A stretch of 63,142 nucleotides of DNA, counting the filler. It is 13 parts of 13 records of this genome, joined end to end, with 100 filler letters (N's around TTAATTAATTAA, not from the genome) between each part and the next. Parts side by side here need not be neighbours in the genome. Positions count along the whole stretch, not along the records: positions 23,607 to 26,439 come from SRR11831585_273; positions 26,540 to 29,370 come from SRR11831585_274; positions 29,471 to 31,536 come from SRR11831585_275; positions 31,637 to 33,835 come from SRR11831585_276; positions 33,936 to 36,031 come from SRR11831585_277; positions 36,132 to 38,252 come from SRR11831585_281; positions 38,353 to 40,886 come from SRR11831585_285; positions 40,987 to 43,605 come from SRR11831585_287; 5 more parts are not named here. One strand, 5' to 3'. The position numbers and the translations under genes were made by a program. Each line of letters opens with the position of its first letter. Position 1 is the first letter of the stretch. The notes under the pieces are model-generated. The model made no database searches. It saw only the letters and a program-made list of their open reading frames with translations, and was not told where the DNA came from. This document shows positions 23,607 through 44,457 of this stretch, in pieces.

Positions 23607-24485
23607 CCCCCTGTTGGTGGCGTGTCTGAAGAACAACTTTGGGGTGGCGAAGCGGCTGCTGGACTCGGGTGCGAAGGCCACGGTCTCCAACAGCGACGGG
23701 GTGACGCCGCTGCTGGCCGCGATGAACCACGACAACATGGAGCTGTTCCAGGCGTTAGTCGCTGCCAACGCAGACATCAATCATCCGGACAAGGTAGCCG
23801 CTTTTGTGCGCTGGCAGGTCATGCGTGTCTGAGCGTCGTTGCAGGACGGGAACATGTGTCTGCATGTGGCTGCCAGCAAGGGGAACTTGAAGCTGGTGCA
23901 GACGCTAATGGGAGGGCGGGGCCGATGTCAATGTTCGCAACGCCACCAGTATGTGTGTGTGTGTGCGTCGTCCGCCCGCTGATGTTGTGCAGATGTCACA
24001 CCGCTGATGCTGGCTGTGGAATCCAAGCATAGCAAGGTTGTGGATCTTCTGCTCGCGTCCGGCAAGGCGGACTTGAACGCGCGAGATGCTGTACGTTTGT
24101 AATGGGCTTGCGTATTGACTGTATCCGTGACTGATCTTTGTTGCGCAGACGGGGAACACTGCGCTCCATCGATGTTGTGCCAAGGGAGAGCTTGAGATCA
24201 TCAAGCGGTTGCTCAAAGAAAATGCAGACTACACAATTACGAATAATGACGGGCTGACAGCATGCGAAATGAACGATCACCCGCAGATTCTGTATCTCTT
24301 CGACGGTACGCTGTGCATGCTCTCTGATAGAGTGGGCCGCATGATACTAAACGCGTGTAGAGCATCGTCTGATCAACCAAGCGCCCACAACGTCTGACGA
24401 GCTCATACCGTGTGAGTTCTGCAACAAGATGTTCCCCCTGCAAGCGATCATGGCGCACCAGTTTAACTGCAACGGCGGTTCCTAG
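23607..24485 (+). CDS. Eukaryotic ankyrin-repeat protein with C-terminal C2HC zinc finger (5' partial, 4 introns)
   Basis: Spliced repeats GVTPLLAA, GNMCLHVAA, NVTPLMLAV, GNTALHRCC; tail IPCEFCNKMFPLQAIMAHQFNCNGGS*; GT-AG introns (e.g. 23949-23992, 44 nt); needs removal of one G near 23911. Confidence 0.85.
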
Positions 24486-24725
24486 GCGTCTGTTCTCGTG
24501 CAGCGTTATCATATGAGTGGTGTTCGTAAACAGTACCGATAGTTTAATGATCTGCATCTTCGGTCGCACTTCGCAGCAGAGGTCTGACAGCGTGTCAGAC
24601 AGTATCGATAGCGATACACCTCGGAGGAGAACTCCGGAGTCGCGTTCCCTCCGCCAGCGCTTTCAATATGCGGTTCATCAATTGTTATAACACGGCAATC
24701 ATCGTTTCTACGGTACCCATATCAT

Positions 24726-26439
24726 ATGCTCGAAAATTCACTATGTATATCGTCTGCTCTTGCGGCGGCATTTCGCACTGCAATTAGCAAAGCGTTCCCC
24801 GGGTTGCCGCGTCTCGTTGCTCCTGCAATCGCCCATGCTTCTATTGGCGTTCCAGCTGACTATCAATGTAACAATGCTTTTGCGCTCGCCAAATTAACCT
24901 CTCGTCGATCTCCGATCGAGGCCGCAGAACAGCTTGTGCGCCATGTTCCAGGTGTTCCTTGGATTAGAACATGCACAGTGTCACCTCCCGGATTCATTAA
25001 CATCTCCATCTGCGATCGCACCTTGGGCAGCTTTGTGCGACACGTGGCTCTTCACGGGTTTCCTCGTCTTCGGACTGCTTCCCCGCGTCGTGTGCTGATT
25101 GACTTTGCGTCCCCGAATATGTGCAAGGTGTTGCACGTGGGACACTTGCGCTCCATAGTCCTGGGAGACGCTCTTGCTCGTCTCTTCGAGTACCGTGGAC
25201 ACAACGTAGCTCGCATTAGTCACGTTGGTATGCCCAATGTATTTTTCTCATGTCTGTATGTGATGGTTCTGAGCGTACCTGTCCGTAGGGGACTGGGGCG
25301 TCCCTGTCGCAATGGTGTTGGAGTATGTGATGCGCACCTCTCGGGCGCCACTGCTCAGAGAACGTCTCCCACTGAGTGACGAGCTGCTCGCGTGGTATGC
25401 GGATGCGAAACGTCTGTTCGATGCGGACGAAAGCTTCCGCTCTGCCACGCATGCAATGTTGGGCCGGCTGCAAGCGCACGACGAGTCTATCTTGCCGCTG
25501 TGGCGAACGCTCTGTGAGGCCAGCCGTCGAGATTTTCAGCGGGTATGCGGCCGTGGGTTCGATTTCTACTCCATGTTTCGCGACGAACTGCAAACTCACT
25601 CGGGCCTTCCTGTAGATATATGATATGTTGGATGTGCGTGTCGAGGAACGTGGCGAGTCCTCCTACGCAGCGCACATTAAGCCCGTCATCGAAGAATTGG
25701 CTCGCAAGGATTTGATTGTGCGCAGTCAGGTATAGTTGATGTACGACCGTGTTTTCTCAATAAGCAGTCTCTGGGACCCGCAGCAGTGCGCGTGCGATTG
25801 CCACGCATACAGACACACGTGTTTTTACTGCTCTGTTGTTCATCAGTCCACGGTTCGCTGCATAGGGGGCATTGGTGTATGGGTCCGGTGAGCGCGTGAT
25901 GCTGCTCCAGAAATCCGATGGTACTGCACTGTATGCCACAACCGATGTTGCTGCCCTGCGCACGCGCATTGAACAAGGGTTTGAGCAGATCATCTACGTC
26001 ACGGACATGTCGCAAACCGACCACTTCAAGCGTGTGTTTGAGGTACGAGTGTAGCGCCGCCGTATGCAAACGATGTCCTGACAGCTGTGCGTTGTCAGAT
26101 TGGCACCGCAGCGGGTGGGTCTCGGACCGCCACTCCCTGCACCATGTCACCTTCGGAATGGTGCAGGGTGCCAACCGCAGGAAACTCAGGTGCGTCCTGT
26201 TGCGCCGCGTGTCAGCCGAAAGAGCTCTGACGGTTGCTGTGTGTGTGCAGCTCGCGGGACGGCGTTTCGTTGCTGCTGATTGACCTGTTGCAACAAGGTG
26301 CGCAGTGCTCCTCCGATTGCTCGTGTCCGTCACTAACGTCACATGTCGCGGCTGCCTGTAGCGTGCGAAGCGGCACAGAGTGTCCTTGCGGGTGCCCGCG
26401 CCGCCGATCCCGCCATGGCACCGGCTTCCCCCGCGCACA
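24726..26439 (+). CDS. Eukaryotic arginyl-tRNA synthetase (3' partial, 6 introns)
   Basis: DYQCNNA, PGFINI, DFASPN..LHVGHLRS, HVG^DWG across intron 25228-25288, GESSY, KSDG..LYATTD, KLS^SRDG; 1-nt frameshift near 26100-26116. Confidence 0.92.
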
Positions 26440-26636
26440 NNNNNNNNNNNNNNNNNNNNNNNNNNNNNNNNNNNNNNNNNNNNTTAATTAATTAANNNNN
26501 NNNNNNNNNNNNNNNNNNNNNNNNNNNNNNNNNNNNNNNACCAACCAACATGCACTGACACGATCGCACACATGCACAGTCGACAATACTGGTGGCCCTT
26601 ACACACACTGGGCGAACTCAAATCGCAGTGACATAC

Positions 26637-27964
26637 CGCGAGAAGCGGTGTCAGCGCAGACATATCATCACCAACCACAATCTCGGAGGGGGAGAGGCGC
26701 GCCAGGTCCGCGGGAAGGGAGTCCACTGAACGGCCGGCGGTCCAAGAGAACACACAGCAATCAGACAGCGCAGCACAGGGTCACAAATACATACAAACAT
26801 ACAAACATACACATACATCTCCCTACACGCACATACACAGCATGACTCGCTCGCACGCACACAGGACACATCACGCCACAAACTCCCACCGCCGCCCCAC
26901 TCCGCGAGTGTGTACCAGAGGACATGGAGGTGTGAAAGTCTCCTGTGCTCAGGTCCATCCACGCCAGGCCCACCCTCTGTGCGGACGCATCTGTTGCATA
27001 CAGCGCTAGTACATAGTTGTTGATGCGCGGCTGCAGAAAATTCTCCTCGACCAGTGTGCCCGGCGTGACCCTGCAAACGTTGAGTGTAAGCGAACGTGAG
27101 AGACAGAATTTCAGGGACAGAGAGCAAAGAGAAAGGCAGGGATGCAGGGTCACAGGTGTAATTAAGCTAAAAGCGCAAAGAGTATGCCGGTCATCGAGGT
27201 AGCAAACCAGCACTATAACCGTCGCAGATACGAGACACAGTTAACATGACGCTACTGTTTCACATAAATCCTGGTGGAGACACCAATCAAATAGAGGACA
27301 GAGAGATAGTATCGCTATAACAGAAAGTTCGTTCGAAGCGGACGGCGGGCACAACATATAACATAACAGCTAACCGCTTCAAGTCACCTACAGCTGCATC
27401 ATCACCCCAACACGAAACGTACAGGCGTTTTACTTCGCGTCCAACTATCTTGGTGTCTCCTTTCTCGTCCGTTTTCAGCACCTGCTCGCATACCGCCACC
27501 TGCAAAGAGTCATCAGGAACTTGAAAACTCAAATGAAGTGCAAAGGGAGTGTACCCGAAATCCTCGCTTGACAAATCGCTCCAGATATGTGTCCAGCGAG
27601 TGATGCGGTACACCAGCCATGGGAATCGGTTGCCCTTTGAACTTGCCACGCTTCGTGAGCTACATGCCGTGCAAGATTGGCATGCATGACCGGAACGTAA
27701 GAAATCTCGAAGATAAAGGTTGTATTAGATTGTTGTGTGTACCGTAATATCAACGGCTTGTGACGCAGTTACAGCGTCTTCGAAAAACATCTCGTAGAAA
27801 TCGCCCATCCGAAAGAGCAAAATGTAATTCGGGTGTTCGCTTTTCAGCTTCAGGTAATGCATCATGGTAGGAGTCCCTGCTTTCTCCGAGCAAAACCGTA
27901 AATTAAGTCCCAGAGGGAAGGTGCGGGATGAGCGCATTATCTGATATGCAACGAACCGAAACAT
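26637..27964 (-). CDS. Bacterial-type MutS1/MSH1 mismatch-repair protein with probable mitochondrial presequence (3' partial, intron-containing)
   Basis: Spliced: [16 protein letters not shown]...[31 protein letters not shown]^[21 protein letters not shown]^VAVCEQ..REVKR^[19 protein letters not shown]. Confidence 0.9.
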
Positions 27965-28053
27965 TGTTCTCAAAATGTCGTGCACTGCGCATCTATCCTC
28001 TACACAGCCATTATTGTGCGTAGATGAAGTGAAAGCCAAAAGAAAAGAAAATG

Positions 28054-28087
28054 CTACAATGCGGTCAGAAAGTTGACCGCACTGTAG
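28054..28087. promoter_or_regulatory. 14-bp inverted repeat in the MutS/ALDH7 divergent intergenic region
   Basis: CTACAATGCGGTCA-GAAAGT-TGACCGCACTGTAG (13/14 match); regulatory role is inferred. Confidence 0.55.
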
Positions 28088-28162
28088 GCGCCTCTGGCGT
28101 GTCATTCATCTGCGCTTTCCGTTCTCCATTTTCTCCCGGACGACCTCGCTTGTGCGCCCATA

Positions 28163-29220
28163 ATGTTGCGTCTAGGTCGCGTTCTTTCATCATTGTCTCG
28201 CACTGCTGCAGTGGCGCGTGCTTCATCGAAGGCTGAGCCGCTCACATATTCGCAGTATCCTTTTCTCAAAGAGCTTGGTCTGCAAGAGGATAATGCTGGT
28301 GTGTTTGATGGCGAGTGGTATGGTTCTGGGGAGTCCATTACATCGTACAATCCCGCGACCAATCAACCCATTGCTCGCGTTGCAACGGTACGCTCTCCTA
28401 CATTGTGTTGAAAACAACACCCACTCTTGCTGACTCGCACGTTCGTAGGCTACTCCCTCCGACATGGAGCGACTGATGACCAACGTGATGCACGCCAAAA
28501 CCAAGTGGTCGCAGGTCCCTGCCCCCAAGCGCGGCGAAGTTGTGCGGCAGATCGGCGATGCGCTGCGGCAGAACATTGTGAACCTGGGTGCGCTCGTGTC
28601 GCTGGAGGTGGGCAAGATCAAGGCCGAGGGCGTGGGTGAGGTGCAAGAGTTTGTCGACATCTGCGACTACGCGACGGGCCTCAGCCGCATCTTCGCGGGC
28701 AAGTACCTGCACTCGGAGCGGCCCAACCACGCCATGCTGGAGGTGTGGAACCCCGTGGGCGTGCTGGGCGTCATCAGCGCGTTCAACTTCCCCTGCGCCG
28801 TGTTTGGGTGGAACGCGGCTATCTCCATGGTGTGCGGCAACGCGCATGTGTGGAAGGGCGCGCCGTCTACGCCGCTCACGTCCGTGGCGACCACGCGTAT
28901 CGTGGCGGATGTGCTGCTGCGAAACGGCCTGCCCGGGTCCATCTCTGCGCTCGCTACCGGTACGTGTTGGTGAGGACGCGTGTGGCTATGGCTGCGTGGT
29001 TGCGGTCGAATTGCATGGTTGTTGCGGTGATGTGATGCAGAGGTGTGCTGCTTGGTATTGTAATTTGTGATGCTGCTGTTGTGTGCTGTGTCCCCGCTTT
29101 TGTCATATCTCTCCACCCACTCTTATCTCTCTGTGTTGGTGCGTAGGTGGTGCCGATGTCGGTACATTCATTGCGAAGGATCCTCGTGTGAATCTGGTCT
29201 CGTTCACGGGCTCCACAAAG
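28163..29220 (+). CDS. ALDH7: Aldehyde dehydrogenase family 7 (antiquitin-like), presequence-bearing (3' partial)
   Basis: [62 protein letters not shown] introns; Arg/Ser/Leu-rich N-terminus. Confidence 0.93.
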
Positions 29221-29762: not shown

Positions 29763-30433
29763 ATGGGGGAGCGAAAAGGAAATCAACCGCATCATGATGC
29801 GTTCATCAAGTTGTTGCTCATTGGCGACTCAGGTGTGCGGGAGGGATCGTTTCGTGCTCGTGCCTTGACATCAAATTAGGTGTTGGAAAGAGCAGCATGC
29901 TATTGCGCTTTGCAGACGACGCATTCAACGAAACGTACATCAACACCATCGGGATCGATTTCAAAACAAGAATCGTTGATATGGCTGGGAAAAAGGTTAA
30001 GCTTCAGATCTGGGATACGGCCGGGCAGGAGCGGTTTCAGACATTGCAAACACTTTATTACCGCGGTGCCATGGGCATTGTGTTGGTGTATGATATCAGC
30101 GACGCGAAGACGTTCCACGCCATTCGGACGTGGATGGCGCAGGTGAAGGAGCACGCTGCCCCCTCTGTTGCGACGTTGCTTGTGGGGAACAAAGCCGATC
30201 GGGAATCGCAGCGGCAGGTTCCGTACGCGGAGGGCGAGACACTAGCGAATGAGTATCAGATGCCGTTTATTGAGTGCTCTGCGAAGACTGGGTCTGGGGT
30301 GTCGGACGCGTTTGCATCTTTGGGGGAAACGATTCTGAAATCGGGTGTACCTGAAACGCCGAGTATGCAACCTGTGATGCCTCTGCCAACGAAGGAGGAG
30401 GGAGATGGAAAGAAATCGGGATGCTGTGCGTAG
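29763..30433 (+). CDS. Rab GTPase, Rab8/Sec4/RabE-like
   Basis: MGERK..IKLLLIGDS^GVGKS across 47-nt intron 29833-29879; TIGIDFK, WDTAGQERF, YYRGAMGI, GNKAD, SAK, C-terminal CCA*. Confidence 0.93.
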
Positions 30434-31064: not shown

Positions 31065-31536
31065 ATGGCCGACTCTGTGCAGCGACCGCGGGCCATGTCC
31101 TGCTTGCCCGTCGATTCCGTGCATCCGTCGACCATCTCGGTGTTGCTGGTGGAAGATGACCGTGTGGCCCGCATGATTGCTACAAAGCTTCTGAGCCAGT
31201 GTCAGTATACAGGTACCCTTGGTTCGCTGCGCGTGTGCATGTCTGCTTATACTGTCTGGGCGTGTGTAGTCGATACGGCGGAGGATGGGATGGTTGCGTG
31301 GAAAAAGCTTCAGAATCAGACGGAGGGCCGTGACTACGATTTAGTTATATCCGATGTGTACATGCCCAATCTGGATGGCCCTGACTTGCTGATGAAGATC
31401 CGAAGTGACCCTAATCTCGCAGATCTGCCCGTGATTAGTATGTGTTTTTCTGCTTTGGAAGTTTGGTTGTGTGCTAATGCGTTCTCCAGTGATGTCTTCG
31501 GCTCAAGATTTGGACGTCGTCGCCAAATGTGTTCGA
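31065..31536 (+). CDS. Eukaryotic response-regulator receiver-domain protein (3' partial, 2 introns)
   Basis: VLLVEDD..CQYT^VDTAEDG..YDLVISDVYMPNLDG..LPVI^MMSS; phosphoacceptor Asp present. Confidence 0.88.
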
Positions 31537-31751: not shown

Positions 31752-33779
31752 TCGGTCTCGACAATGTCCTGCAGAATGGCGTCCTTCTCGCCTTGAACGG
31801 CAACCACGTCAGCCTCGATCTTCTCTGCAGACTGCTCCAGCTCCTACTCACACACAAGAAAACATCAGCACATATCCATACAAACACAAACCAAACACAA
31901 AACATACACAGCATCTTCTCTCACAAAAAATACACACCCAAACACACAGAGAGATAGATATACGCATCGTACCTTGAGTTTACGCTGGAACTCGACCTCC
32001 ATATTCAGCGAGGCTTCGTTCAGATCCACACGGACTTTCTGGTTGCGGCTGATCAGATCGTTCAAGCGGCCCATATCCGTGTGTGCGTGCCGAATGTCAT
32101 TCTCAATCTCTTTCAGCTCAGCCGATTCTTGTGTGTTGCTATCTGTAAATGCGCGGACGAGAGGAGGAGATCAGCCACGGCATTGTCACACAGATACAAA
32201 AACTCTACATGGATGATTTCGCTCTATGCACTCAAAAAGCACTGACACATGCAACACCCCAACACAACCACCAAAACACCACCACTACAGCACCTCCCAA
32301 ACCCCACAAACGTACTCTCCAAACGCAACCGGCGCTGCGCCTGCACCGTGTACTGCGCCGACAAGTCCTGAATCTTGTCGTTCTCTGTGTTGGCGTCCGT
32401 GGCTGCAGACACAAGCTCTGTCTGTCGCTTGACCCACAGATGCTGCATCTCCTGGCACTCACGATCCTTCTCTGCGATGGACTTGCTGAGGTTGTGGATG
32501 GTGGCTTCGAGAGGGCCGTTGTTCTCGTCCTGCGCGCAAACAACAAACACACACGGGTACACGTGAGCACAGTTGGTTCTGTCGAAGAGAAGGCGTTCCA
32601 TCAACCATAAACACGGAGCCGCAGCAGGTACACACAGTAACAACAACAATCCGATAGAACGCGCAAACCCCAGGCGCCCCACACGTACTGTAACGTTGGA
32701 GGTGAGCGCATCAAACTTGCGGTTGAGAGAGTCCACAAAGGACTGCTTCTTCTCCAGCTCATCATTGCGCCGCCGGATCTCCACCTCGTACTTGTCAATT
32801 AGCCGCTCGCGTTCCTTCAAAACATCCAGCACCGATTGGAGCTGAGATTTGAGCTGTTCGTTGTGTGCAGCGGTATTGAGGGTATCGATTCGGATGCGCG
32901 ATAGCTCGTTTTGGAGCGTGGTTACTTCCATTTCCTATTGAACAAAACCACACAACACACACCAGCATGAGTGACGCGCTCAAACTCACAACTCAATCGG
33001 GCACGCGAAACCACAACATTTCTCACAGAAACGACGAAGAAAGATCACTGAACCCGACACGCATGACAACAACACAAACATCACTGAATTTACACACACA
33101 GCCACACAGCAAACCACACACACACACAAACACAGCAGACCAAAGCATCCACCAGCCCACACTCACACCCATACCTTCTCATGGATCTGCTTGCGAATGC
33201 GCTCCGCACCCTCCTGCGTGGCCTGCGAACATTTCTGCAGCGTGGTCTGATCGGATAACTGACGAGCGACATGCTCCTCCATCTTCTGCGCCTCCGCAGA
33301 GAGCTTCTGCAGCTGCTTGTTCACCATGGCAATCTCATCGGACAGGCCCTTGTGCTCCTACAAAACGCAAACGCAAACACAGAGGCACACACAGCAGTGA
33401 GTGAAGGCAGTACATGGCATAACAGGACGTTGAACAGTGACAACGACAGCGCTCGACGACATGCGTACAGACAGATCCGCCACCCCAAAACACAAACACA
33501 CACACGCACAGTCCGCTTTTTAAAAAACTGCGTACCTGCGAAACCTTGACCATCTGCTCGTCGGTGTGTTCGAGGGACTTTCGCAGCATCGAGTACTGCT
33601 CGTTCAGCTTCTCGCGCTTCTCCTGGTTCATCTGCAGACAGCGCTCCAGGAAGGAGATCTCTGTTTGAATGCGATTGTGTGTGGAGGTGTGTTTCTCGTT
33701 GACCTCCTGCTCGGCACGGATCTGCGCCTTGACACCGGCTGCCTCGGAGTCCAGCACGAGCATTTCCTCAACTTGCTTC
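31752..33779 (-). CDS. CCDC40: CCDC40/FAP172-like axonemal coiled-coil protein (internal fragment, 6 exons)
   Basis: Spliced coiled coil with NELSRIRIDTLN, LIDKYEVEIRRRNDELEKKQ, GPLEATIHNL, LWVKRQTELV. Confidence 0.8.
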
Positions 33780-34458: not shown

Positions 34459-34805
34459 TTACGCTGTGCTGGCATCGTCCAATTTGTACTTGTCCGGCAG
34501 AGGCGTCTTGTCATGCTTGGCCTCCCAGTGCAAACGTAGCGTCTTGTTATCTACGGTCTGGAGCTACACAGCAAACATATTTCAGAATCCAAACTCGAAT
34601 AAACGGCTGGGTTCGATGGGAACTCGCATGAACATAGCGGTAAGAGCTATCAACCAACAGAAAACACAGGTAGGTGGGGTACCTTGCAGATATCGCACAC
34701 AACTTTAACCGCCGCGGCGCGGAACGCCAATTGGGATCCTTTCTTTTCCCCGAACCGATCACTGCCCTTCTTTTGGGCCTGCAGCTTTTGTAAACCACGC
34801 GTCAT
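34459..34805 (-). CDS. ZNF706-like small protein (4F5-like basic N-terminus plus C2H2 finger), 75 aa, complete
   Basis: Exons 34805-34683 and 34563-34459: MTRGLQKLQAQKK...VCDICK^LQTVDNKTLRLHWEAKHDKTPLP...*; missed by the ORF track. Confidence 0.88.
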
Positions 34806-35066: not shown

Positions 35067-35911
35067 ATGTCGTTCGAACGACGAAAAATCGTGCTTGATG
35101 TGGACGGCGGATTCGAAAGCTGCGTGGCATTAGCGTTTGCGCTTCGCTCGCCAGAGGTGGAGATTCTCGCCGTCACCGTGGTAGCAGGCGTTGTTCCCTG
35201 TACGTTTGCTCTCTCGCTGCTGCATTTGCTTCGCGTTTTCTTACACATACGCCCTCGTTCTGTGTTCTTGTGTGTGTAGTGGACGTGGGTGTGACGAATG
35301 TGTTGCGCATTCTGGCTCTATCGGGCGAGGCTGGGCGTTCCATCATGGTGGCCGCAGGTGAAAAAGCACCGCTCTTCAAGCGATCCTTCAATGCCACGCA
35401 TGTGTATGGGCGCGATGGCATGGGAAATGTTGCGGATGAGCTTTTACCCGCGCCCCGCTTGGAACAGTTCACAACCACGCCTGGGATCGACGTCATTGGC
35501 GATCTGGTCCAGCAGTATCCCGGCAAGATCGCCCTGGTTGTTTGCGGTCCACTGACGAATATCGCCATCTTGGCCGAAACACGACCCATGACACTCAGCA
35601 AAGCCGGCGAAATCATCATCGCGGCCGGATGCCTACTCCCCGATTCCTTCCACATTTTCACCACCGGCTACGAAACGAGCGAGTTCAACGCGTTTGCAGA
35701 CCCCGAGGCCCTCGCCAACGTATTTGACTTTTGCCGGACATTCTCCGTGCCGCTCACACTGGTACCGGCGGACGCACGTGTGTGTGTGCGAGCGGTGGCT
35801 GCACGCTGTGCGTTTGAGGGCTCGCACGATGCGTTTGCGGTGCTGCTGAGCCGGTGCCCCAACGCTCTTGTCAGCTTTTTGCGGACCAACATGCAGCCGC
35901 TGCAGATTGGG
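35067..35911 (+). CDS. Inosine/uridine nucleoside hydrolase-family protein with degenerate active site (3' partial)
   Basis: KIVLDVDGG, SPEVEILAVTVV, YGRDGMGN, GPLTNIA, EFNAFADPEA; intron 35200-35279. Confidence 0.85.
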
Positions 35912-36286
35912 GTACGCCAGGGCGTGTTTGTGTTTGTGTGTGCGTATGTGTGTGGATGTGTGTGTCTGTGCGGCGAATACTAACGTACTTGTCCCGCCGC
36001 GTGTCTGTCTGTCTGTCTGTCTCTCTCTCTGNNNNNNNNNNNNNNNNNNNNNNNNNNNNNNNNNNNNNNNNNNNNTTAATTAATTAANNNNNNNNNNNNN
36101 NNNNNNNNNNNNNNNNNNNNNNNNNNNNNNNCACACACACACACACACACACACAGTGACATACACGGAATGTCCTCTCGCAATGATGCGAGAAGTGAGG
36201 GAAGATGTGATCACGGGACCAGCACAGGAAGAAACGAAAATACGCACGATACACTAAACCAACGATACACATACAAACACACGTAC

Positions 36287-37889
36287 CAAGCCGAGTTGTC
36301 CGTACATGGCATCGCCCCACACATACACCACCCCCGTGTCTGTCAGCGCGGTGGTGACAGTGTTGGAACAAACAACCTGCACAAGACACAGCGGTATGTT
36401 GTGTCAGTGGCGAAGAGCAAGTGTGTATACAGGCATACAGCCAGAAAGACCAGGTGCGCACAACTGCTAATATCAATTGGCAACTTACTGTCGTCGACCC
36501 CCGGCATGTTACACAGCACCACTCATCGAAGCACACAGAGGCATGTTACACAAACACCCACCCCAAAACATACCTGACATATGTTCTGGTCACTCAGCGT
36601 TTTCACGAGCGTAGGTATGAATTTCGCATCTGTATTACCGTGGCCCAGCGCACCACATTTACTCGAACCAAACGTATACAGACGTCCGCTCGCTGCATGA
36701 ATAAATTCACTCAAATCAGCACGAGAGAGAATAAGAGGAAACGTAACAAAAAGAGAAACTTCGGCGACGGGAGAGAAAACCCAACAATCACACAAACACA
36801 CACAAATACACACGCAAACGCACTGGTAATGGTTGCAGTGTGGTTCCATCCCACCGCCACATCGAACGGCATTCCCTCAAACTCAAACGCCACCCGTGTG
36901 GGCCGCATAATGAGAGGGGCACCTGCCACCGGAGGCCCGTGCCCTAGCTGTCCGTTTCTGTTCTCACCCCATGTATACAGACCCTTATCTGCCACAGACA
37001 CAGCACCCCAGGTAAACACAAAGAGAAATAGGTGTGGTGGGGCAACAGAGAGAGAGAGCGCGCGAGGGAGACAACGGACACACGATGCAAACACAACGGG
37101 ACGCACCCGTGATGGCGGCGATGTGATACCGACCGCATGATATCTTGCGAACATGCACATCACCCAATCCGGAGATAGGCGCCGGTACACGCCCCAAGTG
37201 TTCGTGAGAGCCGTGCTGTCCCTGCCCCGCTGTACCCCACGAATACGCAACACCATCGTCTACAACACACATACCCAAATTAGCACACACAAACGCATAC
37301 ACACACACAGGCCATGAAAACATTACACGATAGACAAAGTCACAACGATGTCCGGGCGTTCATACGTACCTGCCACAGCGGCTGTATACGTGCCGGCAGA
37401 CGATATTTGAATGATAGTTTTGCCATCTAACGCAGTAACGCGCTTCAGCTCTATAATAGGCTTATCACGGCGGCGAGGTTCCGCTTCGTCGTCTTCGTAA
37501 CCCAACATCCCGTATTCAGATCTCGTGCCGTAAGTATGCACAGAGCCGTCCTCTGGATAAGAGTGAGTTATGTTAGCGCACATGGATAAAAGGATCGCAA
37601 ACGCCAACCGAGCAAATCACGTACTGGTGAGGATGGCGGTGTGATAGCAGCCACAGCTGATTTGTTTCACATCGTATCCAGAGAAGATAGTAGCCGCTGG
37701 GCTATTCCCATAACCAAAGACAATCACTGCACTGCCTTCCGCCACATCAACGTTGGCGGAACGAAGAACACCGTTGACCCTGGGGGCAGGTTTCTGTATA
37801 ACTTCATCGTACTCCTCGACAACGCCCACGTCCTCCGAGTGAGAGGGGAGCGGGATGAGCTGTTGCAAAAACTGCGAAACTGAGTGCAT
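36287..37889 (-). CDS. RCC1-repeat beta-propeller protein (3' partial)
   Basis: Repeats ISCGCYHT, YSWG..GQHG, ISCGRYH, YTWGENRNGQLGHG, YTFG..GALGHG, YVWG..GQLG over six exons. Confidence 0.88.
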
Positions 37890-38185
37890 CACAGATCATG
37901 CGAACACGAAATCGCAAGCTCTAGCGAAGATTAGAACGAAAAATGTCTTAAGAAGAACCGAATTCACATGAAAGTGCGAAACGTGAATGAGAGTCGAACG
38001 AGAACCGGAAACCACCTGTGGAGTATTGTCGTTGGAACATTTCTCGCGGAGAAAATAAATTCATGTGGCAGTCAGGGCTATGCTGACCCAGTTTAAAACC
38101 AGGATGAGTGGATTGGGGCCGATTTTTGTTCATTTTAGCAAGTAGATTCTGGAGTATCCCTTTTCAGGGTCTTCTCGTGGGGACA

Positions 38186-38252
38186 ATGTCGTCTGATGAG
38201 TATGGGTCAGGCGACAGTGGAGATGAAAGCGACGAAATGCCCATTAAGCGGA
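38186..38252 (+). CDS. 5' end of an unidentified eukaryotic gene with acidic N-terminus
   Basis: MSSDEYGSGDSGDESDEMPIKR open to the contig edge; divergent from the RCC1 gene. Confidence 0.5.
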
Positions 38253-38500
38253 NNNNNNNNNNNNNNNNNNNNNNNNNNNNNNNNNNNNNNNNNNNNTTAA
38301 TTAATTAANNNNNNNNNNNNNNNNNNNNNNNNNNNNNNNNNNNNNNNNNNNNCACACACACATACACACATACACACACACTGCGCAACATCACACGTAC
38401 AACGCGTGATGGAGAGTGGACTTCGTTCCGCACAACCTCACGCCCAGCACACAGAAATATCACAAAGAAAAAAACGAACAGATGCGCATTGCGCACGGAC

Positions 38501-39422
38501 CTGCAGCCGCGACGCATGCCCTTTCAAGCAGTCAAACGTATTCCACACGGTCCTCTCGTTGCGGCATTTGAGGCAGATCGTGATGGCCTTGGGGAAGTCC
38601 TGGTTCGCAATCGCATGGTCCAGCTGCTGCAGATGCTCCAGGATGTTCTTGATGTGCTCCATCAAATTCAGTACCTCCTACAAGAGGACGCACAAGGGGA
38701 GTGTCAGTCAGGATAGATGCAGAGCCCGTGGGGAGACGAGCAAGTGTCTCGAACGGTATTAGGAACTACGCAGGCACGCGCACGCGCACATACACAACAC
38801 GTGCAAGGAGAGAAGCCGAAGATGTGCGAATAAATGCTCACACCACACACTCCTCGCGTACCATGTACATCATTTTCTTGCGATACGAACGCAAAACCTC
38901 GAGACCGTTCGACGTCAGCGCGTCCGAGGACCGAGCGAGCAGTCTGCGCCCATTCGAGCAGATAATAGCGGTAGAGGTGAGGTCCTGTTCGAAATCGTAG
39001 ACCAACTTCATGCCCGCAACTAGAAGAAGATGTCAAGATATGGACATAGAAGAGATCATGTTGGAATGGCATACTGAACTGCTTGTGGTTTCCTTGCACT
39101 TTCGCCGACAATCTCGCACTAAGAACACGCTTGACCGCATCACCTATCTCTTTCGCTTTCAGAAAAAATTCTGGATCGTTGAAATTTGTGAGAGTTGACA
39201 GGATCATTCGTTTGGCGTCACACTACACTACAAGTGAGACACAGACACAAATGAAAGACAGCAATGCCGCACCTCTCCGTAGAATTCCATCGGAATAAGA
39301 TGTAGTAACTCAGGTTCAGTCATTTTCGACAGAGTTGTCACACCCATCCATTTCTGAATCATGGTAGACCCCGCTGATGACGGAGTAGAAGTGGGACCTG
39401 CCCCACCGGAAGTCGACGCCAT
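38501..39422 (-). CDS. VPS50: VPS50/syndetin-like (EARP/GARP Vps54_N-type) protein (3' partial)
   Basis: Spliced: EFYGE^CDAKRMIL..LSAKVQGNHKQF^IAGMKLVYDFEQDLTSTAIICSNGRRLL..^..DFPKAITIC. Confidence 0.75.
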
Positions 39423-39834
39423 TTATACTACTGCAACATACATCAAGCGGAAAACAGACCGCGGATAACTTCACGAAATGTATTCTCCGCAGTGAACGCT
39501 GATCGTATTAATGTAAAATCAGCCGTGACAGTCAGACGGTGCCTGACAGAGTAGTAAACAAGTCGTCTTCAGCCATTTCTTGCATTCATTCACTTGAGCA
39601 TTCATTGGCATGAATCGATACATCGACGTATCTCTTCCGATGAGTAGCAATAGGAACACAATGTAGTGGCCATCCAAAACGTCCACACAGCTTCCATCGC
39701 GGGAAGAAACACACTTTACCATCGCTTCACACTAAACCACTTAGTATGACTTGCATAAATAGCCCAGTCCTATACACAACCTAATTACATTAACAGAAAA
39801 TCCTTTGCTGTCTCAATTGCGAGACAGCGTCCAT

Positions 39835-40886
39835 TTAAACGGCAGGTACATCTGCGTCAGGCTGACACAGAAACCCGTGCAAAACAGCGCTCGTGGGAAA
39901 GAGGCGGGCCGCCGTCTGCAAGAACCTCTCCACCGCCGCCCGACATTCTTCGAGCACACTTGGTGCAAAGCGTCCTACACACGAATATCAGTCGAAGCAC
40001 ACCCACACATACATGCATATACTGTGGTATGTGTATGCACACGCGAGCATTATGTAACCGCAAACGTACCAAAGAAACGAAGCCGAGGCAGCTCGGGCAG
40101 TTCTGACAGAGCGGAGGATTGCGACCACTCTTCGTGCAGGCGCTCACGCAACACACGAAACTCCTCCAGACGCCTCCGTGCTGAGAACACACCCTACAGC
40201 ACACGTATCAGCGATCCGAGCGCGGGAAGACAGCGTGAAAGGCGCGAAAAAGGACCCCAAAACGAAGATTCAAAACGCCCATACGATCATATCATCATCA
40301 CGCAGTCGTGTATACAGCCATTCAACAACACAGTGCGCGTTTCTGTGCGTGACCGTACCATCGCACCGCTGTTCATGGGGGAGTCCATGGATACCTTACC
40401 GGGAGGGCGCGTCACAATCTGCACGAGCAAACCACACGCACCTCCAGTCAGAAACTGAAAAAAAGCGATGCAGCGTGAAAACACGATGTTATCCCCGCGA
40501 GCCACACACAGACACACGCGCACACGAGCACATACAGGTTTGTGAATCGTGTAGCAGACGGTACTGGATACACAGAACTCGAGGTGGTCGAACGGCAGTG
40601 CAGGGACCCGCTTTGGTTCGGTGACTATGATTTGGGGCTACAGCAACAACGATAAGCAAAGCGCCCGCCTCTTCGTAATAGGTAGAGTACACCGATCATC
40701 AGATAAAAGTATGTGAACAACAAACGGACCAAGCATGGGCGGTGTGTATGCGTACCTTACTCAGCAGCCGCAGAACGTGCACCCCGCCGCTGACATCCCC
40801 GCACACGACCAGCCCGGCCCCGCTATTGATCGCCCCCGCCACAATGCGCGTGTCGCAGCAGAACGCGGCCACACAGTGACAGCTGT
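39835..40886 (-). CDS. WD40-repeat protein with C-terminal PX-like domain (5' partial, 4 introns)
   Basis: CVAAFCCDTRIVAGAI..LVVCGDVSGGVHVLRL^PQIIVTEPK..^..^ARRRLEEFRVLRERL..LPELPRLRFF^GRFAPSVLEECRAAVERFL..VLHGFL..*; not visible in the ORF track. Confidence 0.7.
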
Positions 40887-40986
40887 NNNNNNNNNNNNNN
40901 NNNNNNNNNNNNNNNNNNNNNNNNNNNNNNTTAATTAATTAANNNNNNNNNNNNNNNNNNNNNNNNNNNNNNNNNNNNNNNNNNNN

Positions 40987-41645
40987 ACAGATGACTTCAC
41001 TCACTCAGCTGCATCTGAGCCGTATGTAATCCCCTGTTGATTATTTTATCCATGTTTATCCGTTCGTTGTGGCTTGTCTCGCTGTTTGTCTTTCGCTCGC
41101 TCTCGTTCTGTTCTGTCTGAGCCTTGAAGTATCCGCACAGTTGTTGTTTGCGTCTCTGCGATTTATCTGCTTTGTTCATAGAAAGCAAGGTTGGTGATGC
41201 GGGTGCTCAAGCCCTTGCCACAGCACTGCGATCTATGGCGGCTATGACTCTAATGGACCTGCGATGTATGTCGTCCGCCCTTCGTATCGGTGCTGCTCTA
41301 CTGCTTGATCTGTATTGTGTGCCTCACGTTGTTGTTGGGATATGTGCAGTTTCCCATCACGCATGTTTCTGTTAAAGCTCTATTTTACTCAGTGACTAGT
41401 TGCTATGCTTTGTGCGCACAAGGTGCCTGTGCTCCGTCTTGTGTGTGCCTTTTAAGACTGACCACACCCATCATTATGAATATACTGTTCCGTGTTAGCT
41501 TTAACGTTTCTATTTTGATTGCTCACTGTGAGGCCGCGGTGATGTTTTTCATGCAGCGAACATGATCTCTGACGCAGTGAAGACTGAGATTAAAGAGGCG
41601 GGTCCAGCACCGCGTATGTATTGTAACTCCGTGTACCTGCTGTAA
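40987..41645 (+). CDS. RNI-like (NLR-type) leucine-rich-repeat gene, 3' end
   Basis: MTSLTQLHLS^QSKVGDAGAQALATALRSMAAMTLMDLR^SNMISDAVK..; middle exon 41182-41265 is 84 nt. Confidence 0.78.
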
Positions 41646-42833
41646 GTACTGCGGATGGCGTTAGTTTCAGAGTCATCATAGGATAGGCATCTGTTGATAT
41701 AATATATGGACTCTGCAAGTGTGACCGTGCTACGAATCCGGGTCCCTTGGTTTGGTTGTTTGCTTGTGGGCTAGGGGTGACGGATCTTTGTATGTCCGTA
41801 TGCGGGAGTACAGGTGTATAATCCCGACCATACTGAAAGTAGAGCGGTAGACAATGAGTTTAGAACAGGGCTACACATTGAGGAAACGACAACTCGCATA
41901 ACACTGCGACGGGTATGACGGGGTCGTTGCGGTTGGGGTGCATAACTTTTTCGAAACGAACGTTCCTTATACGCAGTGTTCCACACATCACCACCCAAGC
42001 AGCGGGCACACGTCGGTTCCTCGTGCTTCCGGTTGTTAGGATGGGCCTCTCACCGTGGGTAAACCGAGTGCTTCATATAGCCTCACAGCACTAAAGGGCG
42101 GTGTAGCTGCGCTGTTGTCACTGACAACAAATCTGTCGAAGAGTCCTGCATGATTGTCGAAAACTATGGTCATGAGTGGAAGCAACCCAACGCATACACG
42201 CAGCGGAAACGTATTCGAATCTAATCAGTTACGACGAATCCAACGCCGACCGGGTGCATTATCTTTTGAAAAGGGATCGCATGAATCATCACTGCGCGGT
42301 GACTTCGCCGATATTGGAGCGGTCTCTGACAAAGTGCCCAAGCGTGTTGGGAGATACTTGTCCGGTGCCTAATGGAAGTAGGGAGCGAACTATAGCGGAC
42401 ATTGATGTAGATGAACTGAGGAACATAACAACCTGCCAATACGGGGAACCGTACATGACGAGCTAGGCATGCAGTCTAGGCGGACACCGAAAAAAAGAAC
42501 TCGAGTGCACGTAGCGACCATGTGGGCATGCTATATGCGTAGGGTATCGGGTTACTAACCCTAAAAAGCTAATTTGCTGGAAAGAAGAACCAGTGCCTGA
42601 GAACGAGGTGCAGTGCGCGAGTAACACCACCAATCTGACAGCATCGGCAGGCTCCGGCCACCGCGAGTTCTGTTACCATTCCGCAGCTACGATAAGAAAC
42701 ACAAGTGCAAGGTAGGTGTTTTAGCACCACAAAAACGTTCGGTCAACTTGCAATCGGCGTGTATTACAGCGTTCACGAGACTATTGCATTGTCGGCCACC
42801 GTATTATGGTTTCATTGCATGTGGGGTTTACAG

Positions 42834-43605
42834 CACAGGTTAGAGTCTGAGCGCACCATCGTATGTCCACCCTCTGCCTTCTGTCATATGCGTTCGCTGG
42901 TATACCTGGGGGAACTGTTCGAGCTGCATACGTTGCGGCTTTATCAACCTTAGCACGAATCGTAGTGGCAACAAGGAAATGCAACTCGGTAAAGCCGCGG
43001 GTGTTACGGTATCTGGCGCGTTTTGTGTTTTCACGAACGCACACAGGGTAATGACGATGATTTTGCACCATCATTGTTTCATGGATATGTGGTCGTACAC
43101 CACACTCGCTACATGCAGCAACTTGTCCGTCAGATATGCGTTTGTGTCGTGATCCGAGGTTTATGGACACTAATGTCTGTCGTGTCTGTGGTGTACAGGC
43201 GTAACTGCGCCACACTGTTTCGAATTGGAGACGAGTGTTCGTCGTACTTAACAGCAGAGAGGCACGGGCATGTTTGTCAAACAATAAACGACGTATGCCG
43301 GAGCCTGCCTGCTTTCCAATGGACTTGTCTTGTTACATGAGCAATCAAAAGACTTGCAAATTACATTACGGTAGGGACGAGAGGATGTACATGGGAATTG
43401 AACAGGAGGAGAAGTTCGATGTAACCGTCAAAATGAAGACTCGACGCAACGTGACCCTAACCCACACGCACCCTGGTAACAACTTCGCTTCACACACGAA
43501 ACTGATATTGCGGAAGTACGTACCGCGAATCCGGCAGAAACCGCTTAGCCAAGTAGCCGAAAAGCCTTTCGACGCCATGTACTACCCTAACTTGTACTTG
43601 TATGG
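42834..43605 (+). mobile_element. Possible decayed Helitron/Helentron RepHel N-terminal region
   Basis: ERTIVCPPSAFCHMRSL (42849-42899) and QKPLSQVAEKPFDAMYYPNLYLYG (43535-43605) resemble two Helitron motifs, in the expected order, in broken frames. Confidence 0.4.
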
Positions 43606-44432: not shown

Positions 44433-44457
44433 AATTATTACAACCATAGGTAGAAGT

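What the first reader, a model, noticed from the sequence alone, without database searches (positions are those of the whole stretch)
23607..43605. About 20 kb of an unidentified intron-rich flagellate eukaryote concatenated among E. coli contigs
Seen: eight linker-bounded contigs carry genes that only read through after removing GT-AG introns (shortest found 44 nt). Established: Rab, VPS50, ZNF706 and CCDC40 are eukaryotic, and CCDC40 is tied to motile axonemes. Inference: the source is a mitochondriate, flagellated protist with two-component signalling, co-sequenced with E. coli (food, cloning host or contaminant). I cannot name the lineage. A prokaryotic pipeline would miss these genes.
Basis: partly seen in the sequence, partly recalled or inferred. 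Interest (0 to 1): 0.8.

Follow-up and report, generated by a model that had tools for sequence, protein, structure and literature searches.

The report
Unknown flagellate's DNA among E. coli contigs
Eight short pieces of nuclear DNA from an unidentified, intron-rich, flagellum-bearing eukaryote sit as separate contigs inside a laboratory E. coli assembly, so this is contamination or co-culture rather than bacterial biology, although no close relative of the eukaryote turned up in the databases searched.

Summary
Window 23607-43605 is eight separate contigs (2.07-2.83 kb), each bounded by N44-TTAATTAATTAA-N44 linkers. The contigs on both sides are 100% identical to E. coli K-12 laboratory strains. 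The 20 kb has no megablast match in 5,426 complete E. coli genomes or 72,556 plasmids.

It carries eukaryotic nuclear genes broken by short GT-AG introns. I modelled 22 (47-352 nt). Removing them gives stop-free reading frames in eight genes: ArgRS, bacterial-type MutS, ALDH7, a Rab1-like GTPase, a receiver-domain protein, CCDC40, a ZNF706-like protein and a nucleoside hydrolase. CCDC40 implies a motile axoneme. Presequence-like N-termini on ALDH7 and MutS suggest mitochondria.

No near-identical sequence was found:
- ALDH7: 72% identity or less
- CCDC40: 46% or less
- nucleoside hydrolase: 38% for the top hit, with no hit at E <= 1e-30 among 1.84 billion representatives
- no close match in the metagenome or GTDB contig scans

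Trees put it outside animals but do not resolve its lineage. The top CCDC40 hits (Diphylleia, Mantamonas) look like slow-evolving sequences rather than kin.

This is a real eukaryotic co-sequenced contaminant. Its source organism is unidentified and possibly unsampled. Interest is moderate to low without rDNA or the rest of the assembly.

The parts
23507..23606 (.). Artificial linker (N44 + TTAATTAATTAA + N44) between the last upstream E. coli contig and the first eukaryotic contig. The same linker bounds all eight contigs; the last one is at 43606-43705.
23608..24328 (+). Ankyrin-repeat gene, 3' part. Exon pieces at 23608-23808 and 24179-24328.
   Evidence: Ank 2.6e-09 and Ank_2 1.5e-07. The second piece is weak (Ank_5 0.0021).
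24726..26439 (+). Arginyl-tRNA synthetase, 7 exons running to the contig end: 24726-25227, 25289-25542, 25616-25729, 25866-26035 (or -26031), 26085 (or 26099)-26189, 26251-26297, 26362-26439. One junction is ambiguous.
   Evidence: tRNA-synt_1d 2.5e-17 and Arg_tRNA_synt_N 1.2e-12; 423 or 417 aa, 0 stops, about 37-39% identity to bacterial-type ArgRS of about 580 aa.
26637..27964 (-). Bacterial-type MutS (MSH1-like), 5 exons: 27964-27743, 27659-27555, 27499-27423, 27070-26916, 26725-26637. It has an N-terminal extension of about 20 residues. Its start lies head-to-head with the ALDH7 start, 198 bp away.
   Evidence: MutS_I 1e-09; 216 aa, 0 stops; 16 of 16 PDB hits are named MutS; query 29-73 aligns to chain 1e3m residues 9-53.
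28163..29220 (+). ALDH7 (alpha-aminoadipic semialdehyde dehydrogenase), first 3 exons: 28163-28387, 28449-28959, 29147-29220. The N-terminus looks like a mitochondrial presequence.
   Evidence: Aldedh 3.1e-35; named ALDH7A1 hits at 61-72% identity; 270 aa, 0 stops.
29763..30432 (+). Rab1-like small GTPase, complete: exons 29763-29832 and 29880-30432 with a 47-nt intron inside the P-loop codons. C-terminal GCCA.
   Evidence: Ras 1.8e-57. Rab-1 clusters at 0.97; 207 aa, 0 stops.
31065..31536 (+). Gene starting with a response-regulator receiver domain, 3 exons to the contig end: 31065-31212, 31270-31437, 31490-31536.
   Evidence: Response_reg 4e-12; exon 2 alone 1.1e-08, 35.6 bits against a cut-off of 30.2; 121 aa, 0 stops.
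31752..33779 (-). CCDC40 (axonemal ruler protein), 6 internal exons covering about residues 290-675 of a roughly 900-aa protein: 33779-33536, 33357-33175, 32934-32689, 32529-32316, 32142-31973, 31843-31752.
   Evidence: PDB CCDC40/FAP172 at 3.8e-23 and 4e-22; 382 aa, 0 stops, gap-free 45.8% identity to Diphylleia.
34459..34805 (-). ZNF706-like small protein (76 aa), 2 exons: 34805-34683 and 34563-34459 including the stop. Its start lies head-to-head with the nucleoside hydrolase start, 261 bp away.
   Evidence: zf-met2 4.1e-06 (27.2 bits, cut-off 27) and SERF-like_N 0.043; 0 internal stops.
35067..35911 (+). Inosine-uridine-type nucleoside hydrolase homologue, 2 exons: 35067-35199 and 35280-35911. 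A further donor site follows.
   Evidence: IU_nuc_hydro 1.2e-27. N-terminal exon 4.1e-07. PDB nucleoside hydrolases at about 1e-12; 255 aa, 0 stops.
36275..37517 (-). RCC1-repeat protein. Several short exons, not fully modelled.
   Evidence: RCC1 3.5e-10; 6e-08 and 3.3e-04; 0.028.
38555..39222 (-). N-terminal part of a VPS50/VPS54-family (GARP/EARP) subunit. Exon pieces at 38850-39023 and 38555-37677 region (38555-38677).
   Evidence: Vps54_N 6.1e-09 and 6.6e-04. The piece at 39091-39222 has no Pfam hit and no PDB hit.
40987..43605 (.). Eighth contig with no recognised gene. A leucine-rich-repeat-like exon at about 41184-41264 was judged by eye only. Its composition is nearer the other seven contigs than E. 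coli.
   Evidence: no Pfam family; mean tetranucleotide r 0.55 to the other seven contigs against 0.15 to E. coli.

Best explanation
Window 23607-43605 is not bacterial DNA. It is eight unlinked shotgun contigs from the nuclear genome of one eukaryote, present in the same DNA sample or sequencing library as a laboratory E. coli K-12 strain. They ended up in the same assembly. The scan's own linkers merely place them next to E. coli contigs.

The eukaryote has a compact, gene-dense genome. Divergent gene pairs lie 198 and 261 bp apart. Introns are many and short: about 3.5 per kb of coding sequence, median around 80 nt, donor GTAYG, acceptor mostly TAG, G+T-rich. It builds a motile axoneme (CCDC40). 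It probably imports proteins into a mitochondrion (ALDH7 and bacterial-type MutS with presequence-like N-termini; this is inferred). It has at least one receiver-domain protein. It is not an animal.

Its lineage cannot be named from these genes, and nothing near-identical exists in the collections I could search.

Shown: the contig structure, the E. coli identity of the flanks, the introns, and the gene identities. Inferred: a single source organism, mitochondrial targeting, and the route of entry (food bacterium, culture mix or library contamination).
For: Structure: 12 identical linkers and 13 contigs.

E. coli flanks: 100% identity to K-12 laboratory strains.

Non-E. coli: the 20 kb has no match in 5,426 E. 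coli genomes or 72,556 plasmids.

Introns: 22 of 22 modelled introns are GT-AG. All 8 spliced genes have 0 internal stops, against 1-18 stops in most unspliced frames.

Gene identities:
- Pfam: ArgRS, Aldedh, Ras, Response_reg, IU_nuc_hydro, RCC1, Ank, MutS_I, Vps54_N, zf-met2.
- PDB: CCDC40/FAP172 at E 3.8e-23 and 4e-22; MutS at 4e-12.

One source: tetranucleotide profiles of the eight contigs correlate with each other (mean r 0.55-0.73) and poorly with E. coli (0.15-0.37), while E. coli contigs correlate at 0.76-0.84 with each other. (TG)n/(CA)n tracts make up 0.3-4.8% of the eight contigs and 0 bases of 19.4 kb of E. coli.

Not an animal: in the ALDH7 tree the query lies outside the 29-row clade (SH-aLRT 95) that holds all 21 named animals. 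A receiver domain is also present.

No close relative:
- ALDH7 exon: 72% or less among the 120 best of 7,635 hits.
- Spliced CCDC40: 46% or less against 105 hits.
- Nucleoside hydrolase: 0 hits at E <= 1e-30 in 1.84 billion representatives, top hit 38% identity.
- Metagenome scan: best 66%, or 74% over 68 residues.
- GTDB contig scans: 0 relatives for Rab; bacterial hits of 42% or less for the hydrolase.
Against: A single source organism is inferred from composition alone. Contig 8 fits least well (r 0.55) and carries no recognised gene.

Mitochondrial targeting was judged by eye from N-terminal composition; no predictor was run.

My three large protein searches used lengths='longer'. Exon-sized ORF fragments called on genomic DNA of the same organism would therefore have been missed.

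I chose the splice sites to be GT-AG, so '22 of 22' is partly by construction. The independent support is the stop-free frames and the gap-free alignments to homologues.

One ArgRS junction is ambiguous: the best-looking donor, GTACGA at 26043, is out of frame.

No eukaryote nucleotide database and no whole assembly (no G000) were available. An already sequenced but unannotated genome could match.
Confidence: 0.88

Rival explanations
1. The source is an ordinary, already cultured organism, such as a bacterivorous flagellate, an amoeboflagellate or a zoosporic fungus. Its sequences are simply missing from, or unannotated in, the collections I could search. The 'no relative' result then reflects database coverage, not phylogenetic novelty.
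For: The E. coli is a K-12 laboratory lineage, which points to a laboratory culture or library rather than an environmental sample. Flagellar genes are often absent from transcriptomes of organisms that are only sometimes flagellated (my own knowledge). The searches used lengths='longer' only. The look-up of sequencing runs lists only part of the SRA. The nearest CCDC40 hits (Diphylleia, Mantamonas, Cyanophora) are also the nearest neighbours of most other taxa, so similarity ranking says little about kinship.
Against: Three unrelated genes all lack any close hit in a 15-billion-protein collection that includes EukProt, NCBI, JGI, ENA and Logan. For scale, CCDC40 is 61-62% identical between Euglena and Diplonema and 74% between two chytrids. 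The query's best is 46%.
Confidence: 0.6
2. The contigs are cloned inserts of a small-insert genomic library carried in an E. coli K-12 cloning host. The E. coli contigs are then host DNA carried over.
For: Top E. coli matches include the cloning strains DH5alpha, NEB 5-alpha, DH1 and HST04 at 100%. All eight contigs fall in the narrow range 2,066-2,833 bp.
Against: No plasmid or vector match anywhere in the 20 kb. The contig ends share no common restriction-site remnant, and several end in CA/TG or CT microsatellites, as expected of assembly breaks at repeats.
Confidence: 0.1
3. The DNA comes from an animal, a plant or a higher fungus, for example host tissue or a reagent.
For: The named top ALDH7 hits are mostly animals at 61-72% identity.
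Against: The ALDH7 tree places the query outside the animal clade (SH-aLRT 95) and apart from the plant sequence. A receiver domain is present, and animals lack two-component proteins (my own knowledge). CCDC40 is absent from higher fungi and seed plants (my own knowledge). Gene spacing of 200-630 bp and median introns of about 80 nt are unlike animal or plant genomes. Any sequenced animal or plant would have given a near-identical ALDH7 hit.
Confidence: 0.03
4. The genes were horizontally transferred into, or are integrated in, the E. coli chromosome or a plasmid.
For: Only their position in the concatenated window.
Against: Every boundary with E. coli is an artificial linker. No contig mixes E. 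coli and foreign sequence. Spliceosomal introns cannot be expressed in E. coli (established knowledge).
Confidence: 0.01

Closest known systems
Eukaryotic contamination or co-culture DNA in prokaryotic genome assemblies
   Same: Short, low-coverage-looking contigs of foreign composition, unlinked to the host chromosome. They carry intron-split genes that a bacterial gene caller breaks into fragments.
   Different: The contaminant here is not one of the usual sequenced organisms. No near-identical protein was found in the collections searched.
CCDC40 of Diphylleia rotans and Mantamonas plastica (CRuMs), Cyanophora paradoxa and Fabomonas tropica (EukProt)
   Same: These are the best-scoring homologues of the spliced 382-aa fragment. 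The alignment to Diphylleia is gap-free, at 45.8% identity; Mantamonas 45.1%, Cyanophora 44.7%, Fabomonas 41.4%.
   Different: The distance is as large as between different major groups. Diphylleia and Mantamonas are 52% identical to each other, and Euglena and Diplonema 61-62%. The tree shows no supported sister: the query sits in a polytomy with SH-aLRT 80, on a long end branch of 0.81.
Axonemal CCDC40 / FAP172 in solved doublet-microtubule structures (PDB 9e5c, 7ju4, 9y6s, 8tek)
   Same: Sequence matches at E 3.8e-23 to 5.8e-12 over two exons, in the same order and register. By my own knowledge, CCDC39/CCDC40 form the 96-nm ruler of motile axonemes, so the gene implies a flagellum.
   Different: Only residues of about 290-675 lie on the contig. 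No CCDC39 or other axonemal gene is in the window.
Mitochondrial MSH1 / bacterial MutS
   Same: The first exon aligns to MutS chain 1e3m residues 9-53 (4e-12). All 16 PDB hits are named MutS.
   Different: The gene is nuclear, has four or more spliceosomal introns, and carries an N-terminal extension of about 20 residues.

Membership tests
Escherichia coli genome or plasmid | Nucleotide similarity to any of 5,426 complete E. coli genomes or 72,556 plasmids | tested here: not met
   No megablast match for 23607-43605. The flanking contigs match at 100%.
Eukaryotic nuclear genes with spliceosomal introns | Removing GT-AG introns restores an open frame that aligns with homologues | tested here: met
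   8 of 8 genes have 0 internal stops after removing 22 GT-AG introns. The CCDC40 alignment is gap-free over 382 aa. ALDH7 aligns over 240-270 aa with 0-5 gaps.
CCDC40 (axonemal ruler) | Significant, collinear similarity to experimentally placed CCDC40/FAP172 | tested here: met
   PDB 9e5c 3.8e-23, 7ju4 4e-22, 9y6s 2.3e-21, 8tek 5.8e-12. Most of the 105 database hits carry PF24161.
CCDC40 (axonemal ruler) | Partner CCDC39 and other axonemal genes in the same genome | not testable with these tools
   The whole assembly is not held.
ALDH7 (alpha-aminoadipic semialdehyde dehydrogenase) | Closest to named ALDH7A1/ALDH7B proteins | tested here: met
   The named hits among the 120 listed are ALDH7 or aldehyde dehydrogenases, at 61-72% identity.
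ALDH7 (alpha-aminoadipic semialdehyde dehydrogenase) | Catalytic Cys and Glu | not testable with these tools
   The contig ends after residue 270, before the catalytic half of the protein.
Rab GTPase | Ras-fold G-domain with P-loop, and a C-terminal double-Cys prenylation motif | tested here: met
   Ras family 1.8e-57. GDSGVGKS is restored across the 47-nt intron, and the protein ends in GCCA. The nearest Atlas clusters are Rab-1.
Two-component response regulator | Receiver domain with acidic pocket and phospho-accepting Asp | tested here: met
   Response_reg 4e-12; exon 2 alone scores 35.6 bits against a cut-off of 30.2. LLVEDD and VISDVYMP were read directly from the sequence.
Two-component response regulator | A cognate histidine kinase or phosphotransfer protein in the same genome | not testable with these tools
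   None in the window, and the whole assembly is not held.
ZNF706 | SERF-like N-terminus followed by a single zinc finger in a protein of about 76 aa | tested here: inconclusive
   zf-met2 at 27.2 bits against a cut-off of 27. SERF-like_N at E 0.043, below its cut-off. Size and domain order fit.
VPS50 (syndetin) | Vps54_N domain plus a syndetin-type C-terminus, which distinguishes it from VPS54 | tested here: inconclusive
   Vps54_N at 6.1e-09 and 6.6e-04. The C-terminal part is not on the contig, so VPS50 and VPS54 cannot be told apart.
Bacterial-type MutS / MSH1 | MutS domain I closest to bacterial MutS rather than MSH2/3/6 | tested here: met
   MutS_I 1e-09. 16 of 16 PDB hits are named DNA mismatch repair protein MutS.
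CRuMs (Collodictyonida + Rigifilida + Mantamonas) | Supported clade with CRuMs members in a gene tree | tested here: inconclusive
   The query, Diphylleia and Mantamonas fall in one unresolved polytomy (SH-aLRT 80) together with fungi, Monocercomonoides and unnamed rows. Diphylleia and Mantamonas are also the nearest neighbours of many unrelated taxa.
Metazoa | Nesting inside the animal clade | tested here: not met
   The ALDH7 tree places the query outside the 29-row animal clade (SH-aLRT 95).

The most novel reading that the evidence does not exclude
The eight contigs come from a flagellate that belongs to no sampled major eukaryotic lineage: an undescribed deep-branching group, possibly near the CRuMs/Amorphea part of the tree. 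It would have been caught by chance because it was grown on, or sequenced alongside, laboratory E. coli. The rest of that E. coli assembly would then hold more of a genome of real phylogenetic value.
Probability: 0.15. Interest if true: 0.75.

Novelty: new member of a known kind. Interest (0 to 1): 0.35.

Why it matters
For the E. coli record it is a quality flag. About 20 kb of this 63-kb window is not bacterial and should be removed before any pangenome or gene-content analysis.

For eukaryote diversity it is a lead. An intron-dense, compact, flagellate genome has three unrelated genes with no close counterpart in a 15-billion-protein collection. If the rest of the assembly holds rDNA, mitochondrial DNA or some hundreds of further contigs, the organism could be placed. 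If it proves to be an unsampled lineage, its genome could be recovered from existing data. Nothing here bears on a new bacterial mechanism.

Tried and rejected
- The look-up of sequencing runs on contig 2 (2,831 bases): no run was listed.
- The fetch from genomes: no G000 is held for this window, so no rDNA or coverage check was possible.
- Rfam at E <= 0.1 and ARAGORN over the 20 kb: 0 RNA families and 0 tRNAs.
- ArgRS as a lineage marker: the 120 best hits are about 35-47% identical and mix bacteria (Chlamydiota, Verrucomicrobiota, Microbulbifer) with animals, so it is uninformative.
- Nucleoside hydrolase as a lineage marker: the ten best representatives I looked up were a tea plant, a tick and unnamed, mostly bacterial-sized contigs, so it is uninformative.
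- Atlas search with Rab: Rab-1 clusters from fungi, arthropods and chordates, with no lineage signal.
- CRuMs affinity, suggested by the top CCDC40 hits: rejected as unsupported after the tree and the pairwise calibration.
- First ALDH7 tree: discarded, because my exon 1 start was one base off and the query was translated out of frame. Redone.
- First intron table: had wrong receiver-gene and ArgRS coordinates. Corrected.
- Literature searches for the TSA prefix GILK01, for a GTACGT donor consensus in flagellates, and for PDB 9E5C: 0 papers each. The organisms behind GILK01 and 9e5c therefore remain unknown to me.
- Leucine-rich-repeat reading of contig 8 (41184-41264) and the N-terminal piece of the Vps54_N-family gene (39091-39222): no Pfam family at E <= 1. 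The 172-aa ORF 38707-39222 has no PDB hit below E 0.4.
- A 44-nt intron was not found. The shortest I could model are 47 nt (Rab) and 49 nt (one of two ArgRS alternatives).

Full report
**Structure of the window**

The window contains 24 runs of exactly 44 N. They pair around the 12-mer TTAATTAATTAA to give 12 identical linkers and 13 contigs. The finding's coordinates match eight consecutive contigs:
- 23607-26439
- 26540-29370
- 29471-31536
- 31637-33835
- 33936-36031
- 36132-38252
- 38353-40886
- 40987-43605

They are 2,066-2,833 bp long with 49-56% G+C. The linker is an all-frame stop spacer, so adjacency in the window says nothing about physical linkage.

**The flanks are laboratory E. 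coli; the eight contigs are not**

- 43706-48706 is 100% identical to ER1709, DTU-1, DH5alpha and HST04, and is found in 5,425 of 5,426 genomes.
- 21023-23506 matches at 100%.
- The largest of the first three contigs, 5872-15299, matches DH5alpha, NEB 5-alpha and DH1 at 100%. Each listed record holds four places for the 1-20922 query.
- Contig 1 alone, and then the whole 19,999-base stretch, gave no megablast match in the E. coli collection or in 72,556 plasmids.
- Tetranucleotide profiles separate two groups. The eight contigs correlate with each other at mean r 0.55-0.73 and with E. coli at 0.15-0.37. E. coli pieces correlate with each other at 0.76-0.84.
- (TG)n/(CA)n tracts of four or more units occupy 0.3-4.8% of the eight contigs and none of 19.4 kb of E. 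coli. Several contigs begin or end in such tracts, which fits assembly breaks at microsatellites.

**Introns**

Stop-to-stop frames in the region are short: there are 196 of 60 aa or more, and the longest is 294 aa. Homology appears in pieces that change frame.

I read the junctions from the sequence and checked them by script. The results were:

| Gene | Introns removed | Spliced length, stops |
|---|---|---|
| CCDC40 | 5 | 382 aa, 0 stops |
| ArgRS | 6 | 423 aa (or 417 with the alternative junction), 0 stops |
| MutS | 4 | 216 aa, 0 stops |
| ALDH7 | 2 | 270 aa, 0 stops |
| Receiver-domain gene | 2 | 121 aa, 0 stops |
| Rab | 1 | 207 aa, 0 stops |
| ZNF706-like | 1 | 76 aa, 0 internal stops |
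| Nucleoside hydrolase | 1 | 255 aa, 0 stops |

The unspliced spans carry 1-18 stops in most frames.

All 22 modelled introns are GT-AG and 47-352 nt long. The 18 tabulated have a median of 76.5 nt and a density of 3.46 per kb of coding sequence. Their composition is 67% G+T and 13.6% A. The donor consensus is GTAYG, and the acceptor is mostly TAG (13 of 18 have T at position -3).

I chose GT-AG sites, so that count is partly circular. The independent evidence is the open frames and the collinear alignments. Spliced CCDC40 aligns to Diphylleia residues 293-674 over 382 columns without a gap. Spliced ALDH7 aligns over 240-270 residues with 0-5 gaps.

One ArgRS junction stays ambiguous. Two in-frame solutions exist, of 49 and 67 nt. 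The best-looking donor, at 26043, is out of frame.

**Genes, by contig**

- Contig 1: an ankyrin-repeat gene (Ank 2.6e-09) and ArgRS (tRNA-synt_1d 2.5e-17, Arg_tRNA_synt_N 1.2e-12).
- Contig 2: a bacterial-type MutS on the minus strand (MutS_I 1e-09; 16 of 16 PDB hits named MutS, query 29-73 on chain 1e3m residues 9-53) and ALDH7 (Aldedh 3.1e-35; named ALDH7A1 hits at 61-72%).
- Contig 3: a complete Rab1-like GTPase (Ras 1.8e-57; Rab-1 clusters in the Atlas) and a gene that starts with a receiver domain (Response_reg 4e-12; exon 2 alone 35.6 bits against a cut-off of 30.2).
- Contig 4: CCDC40 across the whole contig (PDB CCDC40/FAP172 at 3.8e-23, 4e-22, 2.3e-21 and 5.8e-12).
- Contig 5: a 76-aa ZNF706-like protein (zf-met2 27.2 bits against 27; SERF-like_N 0.043) and a nucleoside hydrolase homologue (IU_nuc_hydro 1.2e-27).
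- Contig 6: RCC1 repeats.
- Contig 7: the N-terminal part of a Vps54_N-family protein (6.1e-09). This could be VPS50 or VPS54, because the part that tells them apart is not on the contig.
- Contig 8: nothing recognised.

Sources.

Gene spacing is tight. The MutS and ALDH7 start codons are 198 bp apart head-to-head, and the ZNF706-like and hydrolase starts are 261 bp apart. The Rab stop and the receiver-gene start are about 630 bp apart (coordinates).

**What kind of organism**

By my own knowledge, CCDC40 with CCDC39 is the 96-nm ruler of motile axonemes and occurs only in organisms with motile cilia or flagella. Its presence is therefore good evidence for a flagellated stage.

ALDH7 begins with a stretch of about 22 residues rich in Arg, Ser, Leu and Ala, with no acidic residue. 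The MutS begins about 20 residues before the bacterial start, with a similar composition. I read both as mitochondrial presequences. That is an inference; no predictor was run.

The receiver domain lies on the same contig as the Rab gene and is split by two introns, so it is eukaryotic. By my own knowledge, animals lack such proteins. In a 45-row ALDH7 tree the query falls outside the 29-row clade (SH-aLRT 95) that holds all 21 named animals. It is also apart from the single plant sequence, and it groups at SH-aLRT 90 with two unnamed Logan-derived sequences.

**Attempts to name the lineage**

CCDC40 gave 105 hits. The best were Mantamonas plastica, Diphylleia rotans, an EukProt entry labelled GILK01, Fabomonas tropica and Cyanophora paradoxa. 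This suggested an affinity with CRuMs, but two tests do not bear it out.

- Tree. In a 45-row tree the query sits on a long end branch (0.81). It lies in a polytomy (SH-aLRT 80) with Mantamonas, Diphylleia, Monocercomonoides, all fungi and unnamed rows, and no starred clade holds it. It is not inside the Euglenozoa, green-lineage, haptophyte or Fabomonas clades.
- Pairwise calibration over the same 382 residues. The query's best values are 46% (Diphylleia), 45% (Mantamonas) and 45% (Cyanophora). Those three are also among the nearest neighbours of most other taxa, so they are probably just slowly evolving sequences. For scale, Euglena and Diplonema are 61-62% identical, two chytrids 74%, chytrid and blastoclad 45%, and Diphylleia and Mantamonas 52%.

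On this gene the query is therefore about as far from every sampled taxon as major groups are from each other.

ArgRS (about 38% identity to a mix of bacteria and animals) and the nucleoside hydrolase carry no lineage signal.

**Is the organism in public data?**

Within the reach of my tools, no.
- ALDH7 exon: 72% or less among the 120 best of 7,635 hits.
- Nucleoside hydrolase exon against 1.84 billion representatives: 1,893 hits at E <= 0.001, 66 at <= 1e-10 and 0 at <= 1e-30. The top hit is 38% identical.
- JGI metagenome contigs with the ALDH7 exon: 33 relatives, best 66%, or 74% over residues 21-88.
- GTDB genome contigs: 0 relatives for Rab out of 113 pattern matches. For the hydrolase there were only bacterial relatives at 27-42%, from 109 relatives with the best 80 listed.
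- SRA k-mer index: no run was listed.

Limits apply. The three large protein searches used lengths='longer', so exon-sized fragments from genomic gene calls would be missed. No eukaryote nucleotide collection was available. The assembly itself is not held.

**How it got there**

The E. coli is a K-12 laboratory lineage, and its contigs here are short (2.5-19 kb), which points to a low-coverage mixed sample.

The likeliest routes are a protist culture fed on laboratory E. coli, or cross-contamination of a library. I cannot tell these apart.

Cloned inserts in a K-12 host are less likely. There is no vector or plasmid match, the contig ends share no common end sequence, and several ends lie in microsatellites.

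Integration into the E. coli genome is excluded as far as the window can show. Every boundary is a linker, and no contig mixes the two kinds of sequence.

**Verdict**

As biology of the bacterial genome it is an artefact: co-sequenced foreign DNA.

As a lead it has some value. It shows a compact, intron-dense genome of a flagellated, probably mitochondriate, non-animal eukaryote, with no close counterpart for three unrelated genes in very large protein collections. I put the chance that it represents an unsampled deep lineage at about 0.15. More likely it is a cultured organism that the searchable collections do not cover. Recovering rDNA from the rest of the assembly would settle it.

Noticed in passing
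window 32530-32688 (minus strand): CCDC40 intron 3 is 159 nt, a multiple of three with no stop codon. Two exons and the intron therefore read as a single 236-aa ORF (32227-32934). A bacterial gene caller would report this as one gene with a junk insert.
   Followed up: yes
window 35067-35199: The nucleoside hydrolase homologue begins ...DVDGGFES... where, from my own recollection, the family has a DxDxxxDD aspartate cluster. The last two acidic positions read E and S. It could be a variant or an inactive member.
   Followed up: no
window 27964/28163 and 34805/35067: Two head-to-head gene pairs have only 198 bp (MutS / ALDH7) and 261 bp (ZNF706-like / nucleoside hydrolase) between their start codons. 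This suggests short bidirectional promoters and a very compact genome. Both genes of the first pair look mitochondrion-targeted.
   Followed up: partly
window 24726-26439: The ArgRS is most similar (about 37-39% over about 400 aa) to bacterial-type ArgRS of about 580 aa. One top hit is a Chlamydiae MAG protein. It aligns from its residue 7 and lacks the N-terminal extension of animal cytoplasmic ArgRS. A bacterial origin or an organellar role was not examined.
   Followed up: partly
window 26036-26098: At the ArgRS exon 4/5 junction the best-looking donor (GTACGA at 26043) gives a frameshift. Only the weaker donors at 26036 or 26032 keep the frame. Possible causes are alternative splicing, an assembly indel or a mis-modelled small exon.
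   Followed up: partly
window 33936-34060, 35780-36031, 36132-36155, 38353-38381: Contigs 5, 6 and 7 start or end in (CA)n/(TG)n or (CT)n tracts. TG-rich tracts also fill many introns. The introns are strongly strand-asymmetric on the coding strand (36% T, 30% G, 14% A).
   Followed up: partly
window 41650-43605: About 2 kb of contig 8 shows no coding signal under the codon model trained on the other contigs and has no Pfam hit. Its G+C is somewhat lower and it gives the weakest compositional match to the other seven contigs. It could be intergenic or repeat sequence, or come from a different source.
   Followed up: partly
window 21023-23506: This E. coli contig (the gltX / yfeD / tRNA-Ala region) matches the listed strains in two pieces, interrupted there by IS903B or IS1 copies. 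The window's strain lacks that insertion.
   Followed up: no
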